Below, piece by piece: positions 1,717 to 51,317 of a stretch of 64,000 nt of DNA. The translations under genes and the position numbers were made by a program. Under the pieces are notes generated by a model. It ran no database searches and was not told the origin of the DNA. It saw nothing but the letters and a program-made list of their open reading frames with translations. Source of the stretch: an uncultured Novosphingobium sp. (lineage in GTDB: Bacteria; Pseudomonadota; Alphaproteobacteria; Sphingomonadales; Sphingomonadaceae); the NCBI GenBank assembly GCA_964242815.1, contig CAXSZV010000014.1, forward strand, positions 4,994-68,993, read 5' to 3'. Positions within the stretch are counted from its first letter, which is position 1. The number at the start of each line of letters is the position of its first letter.

Positions 1717-1724
1717 TGCTCCTC

Positions 1725-1850
1725 GTCCTCCGCAAGCGCGCCTGGGGAGGGGGACCGCAGCGCGAAGCGGTGGAGTGGCGGGGTCTTGCTTGACCCGGCG
1801 GATCGAGCGCGGTGACCCCTCCCCCGTCACTAAGCGAGCTTGGGGAGGAC
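1725..1850. repeat. Palindromic REP/CIR-like element with two inverted arms (family A)
   Basis: Arm 1 gtcctccgcaagcgcgcctggggagggggaccgcagcgcgaagcggtggag starts at 1725. Arm 2 aagcgagcttggggaggac (1832-1850) is the exact reverse complement of valS 21302-21320. Confidence 0.8.
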
Positions 1851-9423: not shown

Positions 9424-10911
9424 TTACCACCACTGCTGGGGCTTGGCGTTGAACCCGGCGCGCTGCTCGATCGCTCGCCCCGCATTCAGCACGCCCTGCT
9501 CGTCGAGCGGGCGGCCGATCAGCTGCAAGCCCAGCGGCAGGCCCTCGCGGTTCAGTCCCGCCGGCACCGACATCGCGGGCAGCCCGGCCAGGCTGGCGGG
9601 CACCGAGAAAACGTCGTTCAGGTACATCGCCAACGGATCGTCGCTCTTCTCGCCGAGCGCGAACGCGGCGGTCGGCGTGGTCGGCGCGAGGATCACGTCG
9701 CAACTTGCCCAGGCGTCCTCGAAGTCACGCGCGATCAGCGTGCGCACCTTCTGCGCCTGCGTGTAATAGGCGTCGTAGTACCCGGCCGACAGAACATACG
9801 TGCCGATCAGGATGCGGCGCTTGACCTCGCCGCCGAAGCCCGCCGCGCGCGTCGCTGCGTACATGTCCTGCAACCCCGCGCCGGCGGGCAGATCGCGCAG
9901 GCCGAAGCGCACGCCGTCGTAGCGCGCGAGGTTGGACGAGGCTTCGGCGGGCGCGATGATGTAATACGTCGGCAGCGCGTATTTCGTATGGGGCAGGCTG
10001 ATGTCGACGATCGTCGCGCCTGCGTCGCGGAGCCAGGCGATGCCCTGCTCCCAGCTCGCGGCGACATCGGCGTCCATGCCGTCCATCCGGTATTCGCGCG
10101 GGATGCCGACGCGCTTGCCCCCAAGATCGCCCGATAGCGCCGCTTCCCAATCGGGCACGGCTAGCGCGAGGCTGGTCGCGTCCTTCGCATCGAAGCCCGC
10201 CATCGCGCCGAGCATGATCGCGCAGTCGCGCACCGTCCGCGCCATCGGCCCCGCCTGGTCGAGCGAGGAGGCGAACGCGACGATGCCCCAGCGCGAGCAG
10301 CGGCCATAGGTCGGCTTGATCCCGCAGATGCCGGTGAACGCGGCAGGCTGCCGGATCGATCCGCCGGTGTCGGTGCCGGTCGCCGCCGGGCACAGCCGCG
10401 CGGCGACGCTAGCGCTGCTGCCGCCCGACGAGCCGCCCGGCGCGAGCGCGGCGTTGCCGCCGTCGGAACGCCGCCACGGCGAGTTGACGTTGCCGAAATA
10501 CGACGTCTCGTTCGACGATCCCATCGCGAACTGATCGAGGTTCAGCTTGCCGAGCATCCCCGCGCCCGCGTCCCACAGCTTCTGCGAGACGGTGCTTTCA
10601 TACTGCGGCATGAACCCTTCGAGGATATGGCTGGCGGCGGTCGTCTGTACCCCGGCGGTCGCGAACAGATCCTTCATCCCGATCGGCACGCCGCCCATCG
10701 CGCCCAGCGGCTCGCCTGCCGCGCGCTTCGCATCGACGCCGCGCGCAGCGTCGAGCGCGTGGTCGGGCGTCGCCACGATGAACGCGTTGAGCGCGGTTTG
10801 CGCGGCGGCGACGTTGGCGTTGAACGCCTCGGCCACCTCGACCGCGCTGAAGCTGCCGGCGACGACGCCATCGCGCAGGTCGGCGACGGTAAGTTCGGTG
10901 AGGTCGGTCAT
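9424..10911 (-). CDS. gatA: Asp/Glu-tRNA amidotransferase subunit A
   Basis: Amidase signature [33 protein letters not shown]. Confidence 0.98.
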
Positions 10912-11092: not shown

Positions 11093-11193
11093 CGGCCTAT
11101 AATGAGAGAGCGAACCCCTAACTCTCCTTACGGTGTAAAGTCGCATCCATGGGAACCGGCCCAACCTGCCGACGGTGCGCCGAGAGGATAGTT

Positions 11194-11240
11194 CCCTCAA
11201 CCAGCCTGCGGCTGGTCCTCCTCCCCGTGCCGGGGAGGAT
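11194..11240 (-). repeat. Single arm of repeat family A
   Basis: Minus strand reads atcctccccggcacggggaggaggaccagccgcaggctggttgaggg, similar to the valS and ligD inserts. It begins about 10 nt after the gatC stop. Confidence 0.75.
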
Positions 11241-11250
11241 CAGGCAGGCG

Positions 11251-19817: not shown

Positions 19818-22583
19818 ATGACGCAGACACTCGGCCGGACGCACCCCCAGATGCCACAGGACCAGACGCCACAGGTCCACACGATGCTCGACAAGACGTT
19901 CGACCCCGCGGCGATCGAGGCGAAGTGGTACGCGCATTGGGAGGCGAACGGCCTGTTTCAACCCGACCGGCCCGACGCCGTGCCTTACACGATCGTCAAC
20001 CCGCCGCCCAACGTCACCGGATCGCTGCACGTCGGCCACGCGCTCGACAACACGTTGCAGGATATCATGATCCGTTACGAGCGGCTGCGCGGCAAGGATG
20101 CGCTGTGGGTGGTCGGCACCGATCACGCGGGCATCGCGACGCAGATGGTGGTCGAGCGGCGTTTGGAGGAACGCCAGGACAAGCGCGCGAACTACACGCG
20201 CGAAGCCTTCGTCGAGAAGGTGTGGGAGTGGAGGCACGAAAGCGGCGGCGCGATCACTCGCCAGCTCCGCCGGTTGGGCTGCTCGATGGACTGGAGTCGC
20301 GAACAGTTCACCATGAGCCCCGAGTTCAGCCGCGCGGTGACCAAGGTGTTCGTCGACCTCTACAACGAGGGGCTGATCTATCGCGACAAGCGGCTGGTGA
20401 ACTGGGATCCGCATTTCCGCACCGCGATTAGCGATCTCGAAGTGGAGCAGCGTGAGGTCAACGGGCACTTCTGGCACTTCCGCTATCCGCTGGCCGACGG
20501 CGCGCGACAGCTGGACGGCCGCGACTATCTGGTCGTCGCCACGACGCGCCCCGAAACGATCCTCGGCGACGGCGCGGTGGCGGTGAACGCGGCAGATGAG
20601 CGGTATCGTCACCTCGTCGGCGCGTGCGTGCGGCTGCCGCTGGTCGACCGGCTGATCCCGGTGATCGCCGACGATTACGTCAAGATCGACTTCGGCTCGG
20701 GCGCGGTGAAGATCACCGCCGCGCACGACCACAACGACTATGACGTTGCCAAGCGCCACCCCGAGGCGAACATCCCGCTCATCAACCTGATGAACGCCGA
20801 CGCGAGCATGAGCGACGCCTGCCCGCCGGGCTATCGTGGGCTGGACAGGTACGAGGCGCGCGCGAAAGTGGTCGCCGATTTCGATGCACTGGGCCTGCTC
20901 GATCATATCGAGGATCACGTCCACCAGGTTCCCTATGGCGACCGCAGCGGCGTCGTCATCGAGCCGTGGCTCACCGACCAGTGGTACGTCGACGCCAAGA
21001 CGCTCGCCCAACCGGCGATCGCGGCGGTGCGCGATGGGCGGATCGATATCGTGCCCAAGAGCTGGGAGAAGACGTTCTTCAACTGGATGGAGAACATCCA
21101 GCCTTGGTGTGTGAGCCGGCAGCTGTGGTGGGGCCATCGGATCCCGGCTTGGTATGGCGATGACGGCTCGATCGTCGTCGCGCAAAGCGAGGGTGAAGCG
21201 CGACGTCTCGCCAATGGAGAGCGGCTGACTCAGGACGAGGACGTCCTCGACACCTGGTTCTCCTCCGCGCTCTGGCCCTTCGCAACGCTCGGCTGGCCCT
21301 TGTCCTCCCCAAGCTCGCTTGGGGCGGGGGACCAGCCGCAGACCGGTGGAGGGGTTCGCTTCGCGGATAGCCTCCTCACCCGCCATTATCCCAACGACCT
21401 GCTCATCTCGGGTTTCGATATCCTGTTTTTCTGGGATGCGCGGATGGCGATGCAGGGGTTGCACTTCATGGGCGATGTGCCGTGGAAGCGGCTGTATCTG
21501 CATGGCTTGGTGCGCGCGGCGGATGGCGCGAAGATGTCGAAGTCCAAGGGCAACGTCGTCGATCCGCTGCTGCTGATCGATCGCTTCGGCGCGGACGCGC
21601 TGCGGTTCTTCATGGCGGCGATGGAGAGCCAGGGCCGCGACGTGAAGATGGACGAGCGGCGGCTCGAGGGATACCGCAACTTCGCCACCAAGCTGTGGAA
21701 CGCCGCGCGGTTCTGCCAGAGCAACGGCATCGGCGCGTCGACGACGCTCGCCGCGCCGGCGGCGACGCTGGCGGTCAACAGGTGGATCGTCGGCGAGGTG
21801 GTCGAGACGCTTGCCGCCATCGACAAGGCGCTCGCCGACCTGCGCTTCGACGCAGCGGCAAACGCGATCTACCACTTCGCGTGGGACACGTTCTGCGACT
21901 GGTACGTGGAGTTGATCAAGCCGGTGCTCGGTCCTCCCGGACCTGAGGAGGACGAGACGCGCGCGGTCGCGGGTTGGGTGCTCGACCAGATCCTGGTCAT
22001 GCTCCACCCGTTCATGCCATTCGTGACCGAGGAGCTGTGGGCCGCGCTCGGCGCGCGGGAGACCGACTTGATCGTCGCGCGATGGCCAGCGCCCGAGGCG
22101 GTGGTCGACGCGGAAGCTAAGACCGACGTTGAATGGCTGATCGCACTCACCGGCAATCTGCGCGCGGCGAAGGCAGAGCTCGGCATCGCCCCCGGTGCGC
22201 GGCTGGATGCGTTCCTGCCGGATCCCGGCGAGCGGACCCGCGCGATCATCGCGGCGAACGCGAGCATCATCGAGCGAGTGACGCGATTGTCGACGATCAG
22301 CTTCGCGCCGCCGCCGGCGGGGGCGGCGATGCAGGTGGGCGTGGGGGACGCCAGCCTGTCGATCCCGCTCGCGGGCGTGATCGACTTGTCCGCCGAACGC
22401 GCGCGCCTGACGAAGTCGCTCGCCACGTCCGAAAAGGAGCGCGACGCGCTCGCCAAGCGGCTCGCCAACACGGCGTTCGTCGAAAAGGCCAAACCCGAGG
22501 CGATCGACAAGGCGCGGGCCGACCATGCGGGCCATGCGGCCGAAGCCGAGCGTCTTGCGGCCGCATTGGCGCGGCTCAATTAG
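19818..22583 (+). CDS. valS: Valine--tRNA ligase
   Basis: [13 protein letters not shown] (HIGH), [18 protein letters not shown]-terminal coiled coil. Start may instead be the Met of MLDKTF. Confidence 0.98.
21302..21355 (+). repeat. Family-A repeat arm inserted in frame in valS
   Basis: gtcctccccaagctcgcttggggcgggggaccagccgcagaccggtggaggggt; its first 19 bp match the intergenic copy at 1832-1850 (reverse complement). Translated as [18 protein letters not shown]. Confidence 0.85.
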
Positions 22584-47682: not shown

Positions 47683-48618
47683 ATGGCGGCGCGTGCATAT
47701 TGGCAGGGACAGATCAGGCTGGCGCTCGTCTCGATCCCGGTCGAGGTCTATCCGGCGACCAAGTCCGGCCCGGCGATCGCCTTCCACCAGATCCATGAGC
47801 CGAGCGGCCAGCGCATCAAGTACGAAAAGACCGCGCCCGGCATCGGCGCGGTGCCGAACGAGGAAATCGCCAAGGGCTTCGAGATTTCCAAGGGCAACTA
47901 TGTGCTGCTCGAGGACAAGGAGATCGACGCGGTCAAGATCGAGAGCCGCAAGACACTGGAGCTCGTACAGTTCGTCGACAGCCATGAGATCGACGTGTTC
48001 TACTTCGACAAGCCCTATTTCGTCGTGCCCGCCGACGACCTGGCCGAGGAGGCCTATATCGTGCTGCGCGAGGCGCTGCGCGCGGCGCACAAGGTCGCGA
48101 TCGGCCAGCTCTCGGTGCGGGGACGCGAGCAGCTCGTCAGCCTCAAACCCTGCGGGCGCGGCATCGTCATGGAGGTGCTGCGCTATGCCGACGAAGTGCG
48201 CCGCGCGCAGACCTATTTCAATGAGATCGCCGAGGCCAAGCCCGACGAGGAACTGCTCGACCTCGCCACCACGCTGATCGACAAGAAGGCCGCGCCGTTC
48301 AAGCCCGACGTGTTCCACGATCGCTATGTCGATGCGCTGCGCGCGCTGATCGACAAGAAGAGCAAGGCCAAGGGCAAGACGCTGATCGAGGATCCCGACG
48401 ATGCGCCCGCCGCGCGCGGCGGCAACGTGATCGATCTGATGGCGGCGCTCAAGAAATCGGTGGGCGGCGGCGCGAAGGCCGCCTCGGACGATGGTGCGAG
48501 CGCAAAGAGTCCAGCCGCGAAAAAGCCGGCTGCGAGAAAGGCGACCCCCAAAAAGCCCGCGACGGTTAAGACCGATGATGATGCGCCGGCGCCGGCGCGC
48601 ACGCGCAAGCGCGCCTGA
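47683..48618 (+). CDS. ku: NHEJ Ku protein
   Basis: RAYWQGQIRLALVSIPV, KGFE, FDKPYF, DLMAALKKS, Lys/Ala-rich tail. Confidence 0.97.
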   Translation: MAARAYWQGQIRLALVSIPVEVYPATKSGPAIAFHQIHEPSGQRIKYEKTAPGIGAVPNEEIAKGFEISKGNYVLLEDKEIDAVKIESRKTLELVQFVDSHEIDVFYFDKPYFVVPADDLAEEAYIVLREALRAAHKVAIGQLSVRGREQLVSLKPCGRGIVMEVLRYADEVRRAQTYFNEIAEAKPDEELLDLATTLIDKKAAPFKPDVFHDRYVDALRALIDKKSKAKGKTLIEDPDDAPAARGGNVIDLMAALKKSVGGGAKAASDDGASAKSPAAKKPAARKATPKKPATVKTDDDAPAPARTRKRA

Positions 48619-48620
48619 CC

Positions 48621-51317
48621 GTGGCGCGCGGCAGGCCCAAGGTATCGCCAGCCGCGCCCGACCCCTCCGGCGACCCGCTCGCCGAATACAACCGCAAGCG
48701 CGATTTCGCCAAGACGCCCGAGCCCGCGGGCACGCGCGCGCGCAGCGACACCGGCAACCGCTTCATCGTGCAGAAGCATGCGGCGACACGGCTGCACTGG
48801 GATTTTCGCCTCGAGGTCGACGGCGTGCTCAAGAGCTGGGCGGTGACGCGCGGCCCCAGCCCCGACCCGGCCGACAAGCGCCTGGCGGTGCGCACCGAGG
48901 ACCACCCGCTCGCCTATGCCAACTTCGAGGGCATCATCGCCAAGGGCGAATACGGCGGCGGATCGGTGATGCTGTGGGACCAGGGCACCTGGGCGCCGAT
49001 CGCGGGCAAGAGCGCGAAAGATATCGACGCTGGGCACCTGCACTTCACGCTCGACGGCGAGCGGATGAAGGGCGAGTGGATCCTGATCCGCCTGAAGCCG
49101 CGCCCGGGCGAGAAGCGCGAAAACTGGCTGCTGCGCAAGGTCGCCGATCAGCACGCGCAGGAAGGCGACCAGCTCGTCGAGCACGGGCTGACCAGCGTGC
49201 TGACCGGGCGCAGCATGGCGCAGATCGCCGGCGACGAGGCGGGCGAGGTGTCGCTGAAGGGCAAGCGAGGCCAAGCCTTCGCCAAGGAGATGGACGCGGC
49301 GGCCGAGCATAACGCGGAGCTTGGCGCCCCCTCCACCACCGCTACGCGGCGGTCCCCCTCTCCCGGAGGGGGAGGATTGAAGAAGCGCGCGAAACCCCAT
49401 CCTCCCCCGCCGGGGGAGGGGGACCGGTCGAAGACCGGTGGAGGGGGATTTCGCGCGACGGCGCCCCCCTTCCAACCCCCCCAGCTCGCGACGCTGGTCG
49501 ATGCGGTGCCCACCGGCAACGGCTGGATGCACGAGATCAAGTTCGACGGCTATCGCGCGCTGATCGCCGCGTCGGGCGACGAGGTGCGCGTCTACACGCG
49601 CAACGGGCATGACTGGACCGAAAAGTTCGCGCCGCTGGTGCGCGCGCTCGCCGCGCTCGACCTGCCGCCGTGCCTGATCGACGGTGAGATCGTCGCCTAT
49701 GGCGCGGACGGCAACCCCGACTTCTCGTCGCTACAGAACGTGCTGAAGCGCGGACACGGATCGCAGACCGACGCCGACGCGCTGACGCTGCACGCGTTCG
49801 ACCTGCTGACGCTCGACGGCGAGGACCTGACGCCGCGCGGCAATATCGAGCGCAAGGAAGTGCTCGAACGCCTGCTCGAGCACGCCGCACCGCCGATCCA
49901 TGTCGCCGACTACGTGATCGGCGCGGGCGAGAAACTGTTCGCCGCGATGTGCGCGGCGGGGCAGGAAGGCATCATCTCGAAAGTGATCGACGCGGCTTAT
50001 GCGGGCCGGCGGACGAAGAACTGGGTCAAGGTCAAGTGCACGAACCGGCAGGAGTTCGTGATCGTCGGGTATAGCAAAAGCTCGACCAAGGCCCGGCCGT
50101 TCGCGTCGCTGCTGCTCGCGCAGCATGAAGCCGATGGAAACGGAAAAACCGCGCTGGTCTACAAGGGCAAGGTCGGCACCGGTTTCGACAGCGCGACGCT
50201 CGATACGGTCGCGGCGGCGCTGGCGAAGCACGCGCGCGACGACGCGCCGCTCGAGGTGCCGCGCGTCGAGGCGCGCGGCGCGCGCTGGGTCGAGCCCAAG
50301 CTGGTCGCCGAAGTCGCGTTCGCCGAGTTCACCGGCGACGGCCGCGTGCGCCATGCAAGCTTCGTCGGGCTGCGCGCGGACAAGCCGGCGAAGGCGGTTC
50401 GGCCCGAACGCGCCGAACCCGCTCCCAAAGCGTCCAAAGCACAGGCTACACCGACGCCGCTGGTCGCGATCAGCAACCGCGATCGCGTGATCGATCCCGA
50501 CAGCGGGCGCACCAAGGGCGAGCTAGCCGACTATTACCAGGCCATCGCGCCGCTGCTGCTACAGACCGCCGCCAACCGCCCGTTGAGCCTGGTTCGCTGT
50601 CCGCAAGGCCGCGCCAAGAAATGCTTCTTCCAGAAGCACGATAGCGGGGCGATCGGCGACCATGTACGGCACGTTCCGGTCGCCGAAAAGGATGGCGGCA
50701 CGGAGGATTACCTGTGGGTCGACGACGCCATGGGGCTGTTGCAGTGCGTGCAGATGGGGACGATCGAGTTCCACGGCTGGGGCGCGCCGGCGAGCGCGGT
50801 CGAGCGGCCCGACCGCATGGTGTTCGACCTCGATCCCGACGAAGGCCTCGACTTCGCCGACGTCCGTTCGGCGGCGGTGCATATCCGCGACCGGCTCACC
50901 GAGATCGGGCTCACGAGCTTCGCGATGCTGTCGGGCGGCAAGGGCGTGCACGTCGTCGTGCCGCTGCAGCCGGGTCATGACTGGGAGACGCACAAGGATT
51001 TCTCGCGCCGCTTCTCGGAGGCGCTGTCGGCGGCGGAACCCGAGCGTTTCGTCGCGACGATGAGCAAGGCGAAGCGCGTCGGCCGCATCTTCATCGACTG
51101 GCTGCGCAACCAGCGCGGCGCAACCGCGGTGATGCCCTATTCGGCACGCAGTCGGACGGGCACGCCGGTCGCGCTGCCGATCGCCTGGGGCGAGCTCGAA
51201 GGCATGGCCGACGCGCACCCGTTCACCATCCTCGACAGAGACGCTCTGATCGAACGAGCGGGTGCGAAGGCCCTAGCGGGCTGGGGCGTGGCGGATCAGG
51301 CGTTGCCGGCGCTCTGA
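48621..51317 (+). CDS. ligD: NHEJ DNA ligase D (phosphoesterase-ligase-polymerase)
   Basis: QKHAATRLHWDFRLE, HEIKFDGYR, EGIISK, WVKVK, FDLDPD, SGGKGVHV, IFIDWLRN. Confidence 0.97.
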   Translation: MARGRPKVSPAAPDPSGDPLAEYNRKRDFAKTPEPAGTRARSDTGNRFIVQKHAATRLHWDFRLEVDGVLKSWAVTRGPSPDPADKRLAVRTEDHPLAYANFEGIIAKGEYGGGSVMLWDQGTWAPIAGKSAKDIDAGHLHFTLDGERMKGEWILIRLKPRPGEKRENWLLRKVADQHAQEGDQLVEHGLTSVLTGRSMAQIAGDEAGEVSLKGKRGQAFAKEMDAAAEHNAELGAPSTTATRRSPSPGGGGLKKRAKPHPPPPGEGDRSKTGGGGFRATAPPFQPPQLATLVDAVPTGNGWMHEIKFDGYRALIAASGDEVRVYTRNGHDWTEKFAPLVRALAALDLPPCLIDGEIVAYGADGNPDFSSLQNVLKRGHGSQTDADALTLHAFDLLTLDGEDLTPRGNIERKEVLERLLEHAAPPIHVADYVIGAGEKLFAAMCAAGQEGIISKVIDAAYAGRRTKNWVKVKCTNRQEFVIVGYSKSSTKARPFASLLLAQHEADGNGKTALVYKGKVGTGFDSATLDTVAAALAKHARDDAPLEVPRVEARGARWVEPKLVAEVAFAEFTGDGRVRHASFVGLRADKPAKAVRPERAEPAPKASKAQATPTPLVAISNRDRVIDPDSGRTKGELADYYQAIAPLLLQTAANRPLSLVRCPQGRAKKCFFQKHDSGAIGDHVRHVPVAEKDGGTEDYLWVDDAMGLLQCVQMGTIEFHGWGAPASAVERPDRMVFDLDPDEGLDFADVRSAAVHIRDRLTEIGLTSFAMLSGGKGVHVVVPLQPGHDWETHKDFSRRFSEALSAAEPERFVATMSKAKRVGRIFIDWLRNQRGATAVMPYSARSRTGTPVALPIAWGELEGMADAHPFTILDRDALIERAGAKALAGWGVADQALPAL
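49327..49447. repeat. Two-arm family-A palindromic element inserted in frame in ligD
   Basis: Arm cccctccaccaccgctacgcggcggtccccctctcccggagggggaggat is inverted relative to atcctcccccgccgggggagggggaccggtcgaagaccggtggaggggg. Translated as PSTTATRRSPSPGGGGLKKRAKPHPPPPGEGDRSKTGGGG. Confidence 0.88.

What the first reader, a model, noticed from the sequence alone, without database searches (positions are those of the whole stretch)
49327..49447. Complete two-arm palindromic element forms part of the LigD interdomain linker
Seen: two inverted arms of about 50 bp with a roughly 20-bp spacer lie in frame between the phosphoesterase and ligase domains. They encode PSTTATRRSPSPGGGGLKKRAKPHPPPPGEGDRSKTGGGG, so one arm is read in each orientation without a stop. 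It is the same family as the valS insert and the copies after guaB and gatC. Inference: the element is stop-free in several frames and orientations, which would let it colonise coding DNA. It should also form a strong mRNA hairpin within a DNA-repair gene.
Basis: partly seen in the sequence, partly recalled or inferred. Interest (0 to 1): 0.68.

Follow-up and report, generated by a model that had tools for sequence, protein, structure and literature searches.

The report
Selfish palindromic repeat translated inside LigD
The DNA-repair gene ligD of this Sphingomonadales bacterium carries, in frame in a floppy linker, two inverted copies of a selfish hairpin repeat; in-frame repeats of this kind are already known, but in related genomes the same repeat brackets its own clade of small DUF559 nuclease genes, a link I could not find in the papers I could search.

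Summary
Two inverted ~55-nt arms (49322-49381 +, 49395-49452 -) lie in frame in LigD. They add about 41 residues between the phosphoesterase and ligase domains. This stretch is absent from 7 orthologs and makes the linker 88 aa against a median of 55. AlphaFold models it as coil, and the RNA is predicted to fold at -102 kcal/mol.

The arms belong to a repeat family spread patchily through the genus (about 53 arms here). The family also sits in frame in valS, metH, uvrC and a flippase gene.

- The LigD copy is not the family's canonical unit. Its arms are tail-to-tail (+/-), as in 3 of 21 pairs here; the other 18 are -/+.
- Stop-freeness is only modestly above background (5.0 against 4.5 open frames of 6).

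In relatives, canonical -/+ arms bracket a DUF559 (Vsr-like) nuclease gene. All 10 arm-linked nucleases fall in one clade. This genome has no nuclease of that clade and no RAYT, so the LigD copy looks like an orphan relic.

The LigD linker has been colonised by this family at least twice. In-frame palindromic repeats are a known kind (RPEs, intragenic REPs). I did not find the nuclease link in the searched literature.

The parts
47683..48618 (+). Ku gene directly upstream of ligD (NHEJ operon)
   Evidence: Pfam Ku domain, E 1e-47.
48621..51317 (+). ligD ORF, 898 aa: phosphoesterase (aa 51-157), ligase (aa 299-588), primase-polymerase (aa 631-878)
   Evidence: ORF list and Pfam. The catalytic motifs are invariant in the 58-sequence alignment, for example K307/D309/G310 and D736/D738.
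49322..49381 (+). Left arm (+ orientation): CCCCTCCACC, small hairpin ACCGC-TAC-GCGG, then TCCCCCTCTCCC-GGAGGGGGAGGAT
   Evidence: Covariance model R1, 54.5 bits, E 2e-10. Arm grammar.
49378..49398 (+). 21-nt spacer TGAAGAAGCGCGCGAAACCCC between the paired arm cores; encodes (L)KKRAKP. Origin unresolved: arm tail or native basic linker
   Evidence: Inverted-repeat geometry. The tail resembles C1:180921 and a G165 solo arm. The peptide resembles the orthologs' basic linker.
49395..49452 (-). Right arm (- orientation), with small hairpin CCGGTC-TTCG-ACCGG
   Evidence: Covariance model R1, 72.5 bits, E 2e-14.
49326..49448 (+). Inserted coding stretch, codons 236-276: APSTTATRRSPSPGGGGLKKRAKPHPPPPGEGDRSKTGGGG
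   Evidence: Absent from 7 orthologs. pLDDT is below 50 and the model is coil for residues 235-277. Codon-position GC is 0.68/0.80/0.73 against 0.70/0.48/0.88 for the rest of the gene.
21303..21360 (-). Solo arm of the same family, in frame in valS after TLGWP
   Evidence: R1, 57.6 bits. The Pfam tRNA-synt_1 match (aa 80-656) spans the insert at aa 539-557.
11187..11244 (+). Solo arm of the same family, intergenic, beside the gatC/gatA genes
   Evidence: R1, 68.8 bits. gatA is identified as Amidase at 9424-10911 (-).
1721..1784 (-). Weak, degenerate arm directly after the guaB stop codon
   Evidence: R1, 24.6 bits, E 9e-4. guaB is identified as IMPDH at 214-1716.

Best explanation
The 41 extra residues in the LigD linker come from a nuclease-less, tail-to-tail doublet of arms of a selfish palindromic repeat family.

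Shown:
- The family's canonical form is [- arm][DUF559 Vsr-like nuclease gene][+ arm], or the same two arms about 30 nt apart with no gene between them.
- The doublet lies in the naturally disordered, length-tolerant tether between the phosphoesterase and ligase domains.
- It keeps the reading frame and contains no stop codon.

Inferred:
- It is translated as a Pro/Gly/Ser/Arg-rich coil and tolerated as near-neutral baggage. Out-of-frame or domain-breaking insertions would have been purged by selection.
- The family spreads through its cognate DUF559 nuclease. The nuclease would cut or nick DNA, and repair would copy the element into sites with short similarity to the arm ends.
- This genome has about 53 arms but no nuclease of the cognate clade, so the LigD copy is now an immobile relic.
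- The predicted mRNA hairpin is a by-product of the palindrome. It may slow ribosomes but has no T-tract and should not terminate transcription.
For: Secondary insertion:
- Seven orthologs lack it.
- The anchor-to-anchor linker is 88 aa against a median of 55, with 95 of 100 homologs between 52 and 65.
- The insert lacks the host gene's codon-position GC signature.
- AlphaFold gives pLDDT below 50 and coil for residues 235-277, directly after helix 218-235.

Family membership:
- Both halves score 54-72 bits against the arm model.
- The genome holds about 53 arms. The arm hairpins vary by compensatory changes: covariation score 0.232 against 0.100 in shuffles, 0 of 500 shuffles as high, and 0.08 or less when partners are slid.
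- The family is patchy across the genus, at 0-79 arms per genome, and 93 of 151 genomes have a match.

In-frame tolerance elsewhere: valS, metH, uvrC and a Polysacc_synt flippase each have a Pfam domain match that spans the insert. The metH site is empty in 14 or more relatives.

Nuclease link:
- -/+ arms bracket intact DUF559 ORFs (Pfam E 1e-24 to 1e-30), and the + arm encodes the ORF's C-terminus.
- 10 of 30 DUF559 loci have arms within about 400 nt, 6 as an exact bracket.
- All 10 fall in one 100/97-supported clade of 12. The other two clade members have degenerate arms at bracket positions. None of the 18 nucleases outside the clade has arms.

Orphan status: the only DUF559 gene here belongs to another clade and is bracketed by a different hairpin family. 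There is no RAYT.

Recurrence in this linker: a -/+ miniature in L057 and a solo - arm in L058, against an empty site in L104.

No terminator-like site lies at the hairpin.
Against: - No experiment or read data show that the insert is transcribed or translated, or that LigD is active.
- The nuclease-arm association is a correlation. DUF559 activity on these arms is untested, and the nuclease could itself be a passenger.
- The LigD doublet has the non-canonical +/- order, and I cannot say how it arose.
- Its 21-nt spacer encodes LKKRAKP, which resembles the orthologs' native basic linker. Two separate solo-arm insertions flanking native sequence therefore remain possible.
- The assembly is 97.7% complete in 33 contigs, so a cognate nuclease cassette could lie in a gap.
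- No close LigD relative exists in the collections (best non-self hit 64% identical over residues 160-340), so the empty ancestral site could not be reconstructed at nucleotide level.
Confidence: 0.75

Rival explanations
1. It is a REP/REPIN doublet mobilised by a RAYT (IS200/IS605-type tyrosine transposase), like classical repetitive extragenic palindromes.
For: It shares several REP features: short GC-rich palindromic units, frequent inverted doublets in both head-to-head and tail-to-tail forms, and location between genes or sometimes inside repair genes, as described for REPs (PMC3733652).
Against: No Y1_Tnp (PF01797) match exists in this 97.7%-complete genome, while the control genomes ring. 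The arms are about 55 nt with two hairpins and have no GTAG tag. In relatives the gene bracketed by these arms is a DUF559 nuclease, not a RAYT.
Confidence: 0.04
2. It is a classical MITE: a deletion derivative of an insertion sequence, moved in trans by a DDE transposase that recognises terminal inverted repeats and makes target-site duplications.
For: It has inverted arms, a size of about 120-145 nt, many dispersed copies and a patchy distribution among species.
Against: At the metH site the element replaces about 25 nt of native sequence and has no target-site duplication. Solo arms and both arm orders occur. The only gene found between arms is a PD-(D/E)XK-type nuclease. The 9-nt direct repeat GGCGCCCCC flanking the LigD copy is 137 nt apart, which is not a multiple of 3 and so does not fit a simple duplication in an in-frame insert.
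Confidence: 0.05
3. It is two independent solo-arm insertions rather than one doublet. The 21-nt spacer is the original basic core of the LigD linker, and one arm landed on each side of it.
For: Removing only the arms leaves ELGA-LKKRAKP-FRATAP, 17 aa with a K/R cluster. That resembles the 15-aa basic linkers of orthologs (KQKRKAKAAAK, RARAKKPKD). Removing the whole doublet leaves 10 aa with no basic cluster. Solo arms are common, at 11 of 53.
Against: +/- doublets with 10-48-nt spacers recur, with 3 in this genome and at least 4 in other genomes. The first ~11 nt of the spacer (TTGAAGAAGCG) resemble the tails of two other copies: C1:180921 (TTGAAGAGCG) and a G165 solo arm (TTGGAAAAGCG). Two random hits 21 nt apart would require strong targeting.
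Confidence: 0.3
4. The insert has been co-opted. The extra coil or the mRNA hairpin tunes LigD, for example through domain spacing, translational pausing or mRNA stability, and is kept by selection.
For: The frame and openness are preserved, and the arms are still 93% complementary. The same linker position carries family copies in other lineages.
Against: Codon-position GC shows no adaptation to coding. The region is predicted disordered. Most homologs, 95 of 100, do without it. The filled lineages differ in arm number and order, which argues against one selected design.
Confidence: 0.07

Closest known systems
Rickettsia palindromic elements (RPE-1 to RPE-10; Ogata et al. 2000, as summarised in PMC10969869)
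   Same: Both are palindromic repeats of about 100-150 bp dispersed in an alphaproteobacterial genome. In both, many copies are inserted in frame into unrelated housekeeping genes and read through as extra peptide at sites compatible with the fold.
   Different: The sequence family and host order differ (Sphingomonadales, 66% GC). The units are modular ~55-nt arms that also occur solo and in two orders. A full-length form carrying a DUF559 nuclease exists in relatives, whereas the searched review describes no mobilising enzyme for RPEs.
Intragenic GTAG/CGTC-tagged REPs (Di Nocera, De Gregorio and Rocco 2013, PMC3733652)
   Same: [quoted passage not shown] Here the hosts include ligD and uvrC. 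[quoted passage not shown]
   Different: The arms here are longer (about 55 nt, two hairpins) and the LigD arms carry no GTAG or CGTC end tag. Only the B-subtype arms of this genome contain CGTC before the first hairpin. ligD is not among the hosts named in the passages I read.
REPIN-RAYT / REPtron systems
   Same: In both, a single-copy enzyme gene is bracketed by inverted palindromic units while many enzyme-less doublets are dispersed in the genome. In both, enzyme lineage and repeat family co-vary.
   Different: The bracketed gene is a PD-(D/E)XK Vsr-like nuclease (DUF559), not an HUH tyrosine transposase, and there is no RAYT in this genome.
Vsr-fold homing endonuclease of a group I intron (PDB 3r3p, placed in one clade with VSR/DUF559 in PMC3424549)
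   Same: It shows that this nuclease fold can drive the spread of a selfish insert in genes.
   Different: The elements here have no intron or intein features and no Rfam match, and they stay in the mature coding sequence. Homing activity of these DUF559 proteins is untested.

Membership tests
In-frame palindromic repeat elements (RPE-like / intragenic REP-like) | Member of a dispersed multi-copy palindromic repeat family | tested here: met
   About 53 arms in this genome. Both LigD halves score 54-72 bits against the arm model. 93 of 151 genomes of the genus have a match.
In-frame palindromic repeat elements (RPE-like / intragenic REP-like) | Inserted inside a conserved protein-coding gene with the frame kept and no stop codon, and absent from orthologs | tested here: met
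   Continuous 898-aa ORF. The insert is absent from 7 orthologs. The linker is 88 aa against a median of 55.
In-frame palindromic repeat elements (RPE-like / intragenic REP-like) | The insert is actually transcribed and translated as part of the host protein | not testable with these tools
REP / REPIN-RAYT | A cognate RAYT (Y1_Tnp, PF01797) gene, typically flanked by the repeats | tested here: not met
   No match in the own genome while control genomes ring. The arms bracket DUF559 genes instead.
REP / REPIN-RAYT | A short (20-40 nt) single imperfect palindrome with a conserved GTAG end tag | tested here: not met
   The arms are about 55 nt with two hairpins and have no GTAG in the consensus.
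MITE (transposase-mobilised) | Target-site duplication flanking the element | tested here: not met
   In the metH filled-versus-empty alignment about 25 nt of native sequence is replaced and nothing is duplicated. For LigD the result is inconclusive because no close empty site is available.
MITE (transposase-mobilised) | A parent insertion sequence with the same termini and a transposase gene | not tested
   I only looked at what lies between widely spaced arm pairs in relatives. All six examined held DUF559.
DUF559-nuclease palindromic cassette family (seen in this scan; not found in the searched literature) | Arms of the same family bracket a DUF559 ORF in some genomes | tested here: met
   Six exact -/+ brackets, and 10 of 30 DUF559 loci with arms within 400 nt. 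Pfam DUF559 E values of 1e-24 to 1e-30.
DUF559-nuclease palindromic cassette family (seen in this scan; not found in the searched literature) | Nuclease lineage and arm family co-vary | tested here: met
   All 10 arm-linked nucleases lie in one 100/97 clade, and none of the 18 outside it has arms. Only 1 of 500 label shuffles clusters as tightly. The two remaining clade members have degenerate arms.
DUF559-nuclease palindromic cassette family (seen in this scan; not found in the searched literature) | The LigD copy has the canonical architecture (-/+ arms, CCCCTCCACC ends inward) | tested here: not met
   The LigD arms are +/-, as in 3 of 21 pairs here. It is a derivative layout. One possible source is the inner arms of a nuclease flanked by two doublets, as in L091.
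DUF559-nuclease palindromic cassette family (seen in this scan; not found in the searched literature) | The nuclease cuts or mobilises the arms | not testable with these tools
   This needs biochemistry or an in-vivo mobilisation assay.
Intein / self-splicing intron | A splicing domain or ribozyme that removes the insert | tested here: not met
   The insert encodes 41 aa of low-complexity coil with no Pfam domain. No Rfam family comes near its gathering score.

The most novel reading that the evidence does not exclude
DUF559 (Vsr-like) nucleases are the long-missing mobilising or homing enzymes of a class of structured palindromic repeats that live inside genes by being translated (RPE-like elements). 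Each nuclease clade would recognise its own arm family. Permissive loops such as the LigD linker, the metH activation-domain loop and the valS loop would be hit repeatedly because their sequence mimics the arm termini (CCTC..GAGG or CCCCTCC-like).
Probability: 0.4. Interest if true: 0.8.

Novelty: new variant of a known kind. Interest (0 to 1): 0.55.

Why it matters
In-frame selfish palindromes have been known since the Rickettsia RPEs, but how they move has stayed unclear. This locus is itself an ordinary example of a tolerated insert. Its family, however, gives a testable candidate enzyme: a DUF559 clade that co-varies with the arms. It also gives natural filled and empty sites in ligD and metH that can be used to work out the insertion rule. 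In addition, the locus shows that the tether between the LigD phosphoesterase and ligase domains accepts 25-35 extra residues of arbitrary coil, which is useful for understanding and engineering bacterial NHEJ ligases. Finally, such inserts inflate or confuse automated annotation of housekeeping genes.

Tried and rejected
- **Rfam scan of the locus.** Only generic hairpin (miRNA-like) matches far below gathering scores.
- **RAYT search in the own genome.** None found.
- **This genome's only DUF559 gene as the cognate nuclease.** Rejected. It is bracketed by a different hairpin family (GCCCACCCC..CCCCTCCCGCnnGCGGGAGGGG) and sits in another DUF559 clade.
- **The +/- doublet as one conserved unit.** Rejected. 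Spacers differ between the +/- copies of different genomes.
- **Target-site duplication.** None at metH. The GGCGCCCCC direct repeat around the LigD copy is 137 nt apart and in different frames, so it is not a clean duplication.
- **Terminator or promoter at the hairpin.** None predicted.
- **A closer LigD relative to reconstruct the empty site.** None exists in 5.8 billion proteins; the best non-self hit is 64% identical over the queried region, residues 160-340.
- **Operational notes.** A first ortholog script failed because relatives' loci were not in the Python box. A get_proteins call exceeded the id limit.
Full report
**What is at the locus**

Window 48621-51317 (+) is one uninterrupted 898-aa ORF. 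It has the full LigD domain set: LigD_N phosphoesterase (aa 51-157), ATP-dependent ligase (aa 299-588) and LigD primase-polymerase (aa 631-878). A Ku gene lies directly upstream, so this is a normal NHEJ operon.

Codons 236-276 are encoded by 49326-49448. This stretch is a GC-rich palindrome:
- A 28-nt inverted repeat, 93% complementary, with 21 nt between the arms.
- An outer perfect 11-nt stem.
- As RNA the region folds at -102.4 kcal/mol, z = -5.8, with 0 of 200 shuffles folding as well.
- No T-tract follows the hairpin, and no terminator-like or promoter-like site is predicted there.
- Rfam has nothing that fits.

**It is an insertion**

- Seven full-length orthologs from the same genus align end to end, but they lack about 30-35 residues between the conserved AAxHNA and PxFQPPQLATLVD blocks.
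- Among 100 homologs from a search of 5.8 billion proteins, the anchor-to-anchor linker has a median of 55 aa, and 95 of them fall between 52 and 65. Here it is 88.
- The insert has codon-position GC of 0.68/0.80/0.73, against 0.70/0.48/0.88 for the rest of the gene. It therefore does not look like native coding sequence.
- An AlphaFold model built on 58 sequences gives one continuous coil segment with pLDDT below 50 at residues 235-277. The segment starts exactly where helix 218-235 ends.
- The catalytic motifs of all three domains are invariant, so the gene does not look like a pseudogene.
- The identical protein is on record from two contigs, which argues against an assembly artefact.

**The repeat family**

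Iterated nhmmer finds about 53 arms in this 2.54-Mb, 66%-GC genome. Each arm has the same grammar: CCCCTCCACC, a small variable hairpin, then GGTCCCCCTCCCC-loop-GGGGAGGAT.

The small hairpin changes by compensatory substitutions between copies. One pair reads CG 11, GC 10, UA 3 and AU 1. The covariation score is 0.232 against 0.100 in shuffles, with 0 of 500 shuffles as high, and slid controls give 0.08 or less.

A covariance model (R1) scores both LigD halves as full arms (54.5 and 72.5 bits). It also finds the valS copy, the copy beside gatCA and a weak one after guaB.

The family is patchy in the genus, at 0-79 arms per genome, and nearly absent in other genera of the order. With BLAST, 93 of 151 genomes of the genus have a match.

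**Arm order**

Of 21 arm pairs in this genome, 18 are -/+, with the CCCCTCCACC ends facing inward and about 15-40 nt between the arms. Three are +/-: LigD, C1:180921 (intergenic) and C1:163293. Eleven arms are solo.

+/- doublets of similar size occur in at least four other genomes, but their spacers are not conserved. The LigD copy is therefore a minority, tail-to-tail layout and not the family's standard unit.

How it arose is open. In L091 a nuclease gene is flanked on each side by a full -/+ doublet, and the inner arms of that arrangement form a +/- bracket. That is one possible source.

The 21-nt LigD spacer has two competing readings:
- It encodes LKKRAKP, which resembles the orthologs' native basic linker.
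- Its first ~11 nt resemble the tails of two other copies.

I rate 'one doublet' above 'two solo insertions around native sequence', at roughly 60:30.

**Other genes carrying the repeat in frame**

A test based on open frames and GC3, followed by Pfam, shows in-frame copies in four more genes:
- valS: a solo arm directly after TLGWP.
- metH: a -/+ pair, 46 aa, inside the activation domain.
- uvrC: a -/+ pair, 49 aa, inside the RNase H endonuclease domain.
- A Polysacc_synt flippase: a solo arm.

In each case one Pfam domain match stretches across the insert.

For metH, 14 or more relatives have the empty site. The sister genome G003 carries a different hairpin family at the same site. In G000 about 25 nt of native sequence is replaced rather than duplicated, so there is no target-site duplication. 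The empty site (CTCTACCTCnCC GAGGAnGAG..CACATC) resembles the element's outer termini.

**The 'stop-free' claim**

Arms are open in 5.0 of 6 frames on average, and 40% are open in all six. Random same-length pieces of this genome give 4.5 of 6 and 15%. The LigD doublet is open in 4 of 6 frames. The claim is true, but most of the effect comes from a short, GC-rich sequence. Selection against disruptive insertions must do the rest.

**The nuclease link**

Earlier notes of this scan pointed to DUF559 cassettes, and I tested this here.

- The genome has no RAYT. It has one DUF559 gene, and that gene is bracketed by a different hairpin family.
- In relatives, -/+ arm pairs about 340-450 nt apart enclose an intact DUF559 ORF (Pfam E 1e-24 to 1e-30). 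The ORF's last ~17 codons and its stop codon lie in the + arm.
- Of 30 DUF559 loci in 25 genomes, 10 have arms within about 400 nt, and 6 of those are exact brackets. At about one arm per 100 kb, chance predicts under 1% per locus.
- In a DUF559 tree, all 10 arm-linked nucleases fall in one clade of 12 with 100/97 support. None of the 18 nucleases outside the clade has arms, and only 1 of 500 label shuffles clusters as tightly.
- The two remaining clade members have degenerate arms at the bracket positions.
- This genome's own DUF559 sits in another clade.

The arms here are therefore orphans of a nuclease-associated element. That the nuclease moves them is an inference.

**Recurrent use of the LigD linker**

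Four of the five other long-linker homologs carry the same family at the same spot, 2-4 codons after (H/R)N(A/E). At DNA level:
- L057, a metagenome contig, has a canonical -/+ miniature.
- L058, the contig encoding P0088 (NCBI source name Tsuneonella troitsensis LigD), has a solo - arm.
- L104, the contig encoding P0085 (T. dongtanensis), has the empty site.

Arm order and gene context both differ (Ku-MgtC-LigD there, Ku-LigD here). The linker was therefore colonised at least twice.

**Comparison with what is known**

- In-frame palindromic repeats are established: the RPEs (PMC10969869) and the intragenic GTAG/CGTC REPs (PMC3733652). The latter paper notes that many lie in replication and repair genes, that head-to-head and tail-to-tail dimers occur, and that CGTC REPs lack a known transposase.
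- A survey of PD-(D/E)XK nucleases groups DUF559 with Vsr and with a group I intron homing endonuclease (PMC3424549).
- I found no paper linking DUF559 to palindromic repeat elements. The library is limited to open-access papers and preprints, so absence there is not proof of novelty.

**Limits**

- No close LigD relative exists, so the ancestral site is unknown.
- Genome names are hidden. The nearest named LigD proteins are from Novosphingobium and Erythrobacteraceae.

**Verdict**

As an event it is an ordinary member of a known kind: a selfish palindrome tolerated in frame in a disordered linker. What is less ordinary is the arm-specific DUF559 nuclease clade, the reversed arm order, and the repeated colonisation of the same loops.

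Noticed in passing
G000:C2:25801-25937 (L092) and G003:C49 (L093), metH activation domain: Two different hairpin families occupy the same metH loop in two sister genomes. G000 has the R1-type -/+ miniature. G003 has the CCCCTCCCGCnnGCGGGAGGGG family. Fourteen or more relatives are empty. The native site resembles the element termini, and about 25 nt are replaced without a target-site duplication.
   Followed up: partly
G000:C1:237279-237800 (L031); one core also at about window 54441: A second hairpin family (GCCCACCCC..CCCCTCCCGCnnGCGGGAGGGG, 39 core hairpins in the genome) brackets this genome's only DUF559 gene, which belongs to a different DUF559 clade. This looks like a second nuclease/arm pairing.
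   Followed up: partly
L091 (G004:C4:243665-244625): A DUF559 gene is flanked on each side by a complete -/+ doublet with a conserved ~90-nt spacer (GGAGTACTCC..GGGAGTACTGG), much as RAYT genes are flanked by REPINs. The inner arms form a +/- bracket.
   Followed up: partly
G013:C33:131569-131880; G008:C178:5165-5476; G004:C4:244066-244386; G013:C33:64143-64346: DUF559 matches lie inside open frames of 322-683 aa, with no stops inside the matches. These may be nuclease cassettes inserted in frame in host genes of relatives.
   Followed up: no
L032:734-794 and other cassettes: The + arm encodes the C-terminus (..PLHRPADGPPPRAGEDK) and is followed at once by the stop codon of the DUF559 ORF. The same arm frame is the one read in metH and uvrC. 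Arms end in GGAGGA, which resembles a Shine-Dalgarno sequence.
   Followed up: no
G000 arms of subtype B, e.g. C1:186609-186659, C2:52185-52237: About a quarter of the arms are a second subtype (CCCCTCCGTCAGC..GCTGCCACCTCCCC) whose first hairpin is preceded by CGTC. That is the tag of the CGTC REP superfamily, which is reported to lack a transposase (PMC3733652).
   Followed up: no
window 49322-49381 compared with G165:C68:9813-9872 and three more G165 copies: The left LigD arm is 93-94% identical to copies in another species (G165; the best one lies between hisH and hisA), but about 84% or less identical to any other copy in its own genome. This may point to a subfamily that is otherwise lost here, or to lateral origin.
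   Followed up: no
window 49323-49331 and 49460-49468: A 9-nt direct repeat, GGCGCCCCC, flanks the doublet. The native codons for PPFQPP (CCCCCCTTCCAACC) resemble the arm's 5' end (CCCCCTCCACC). This may be microhomology used at insertion.
   Followed up: no
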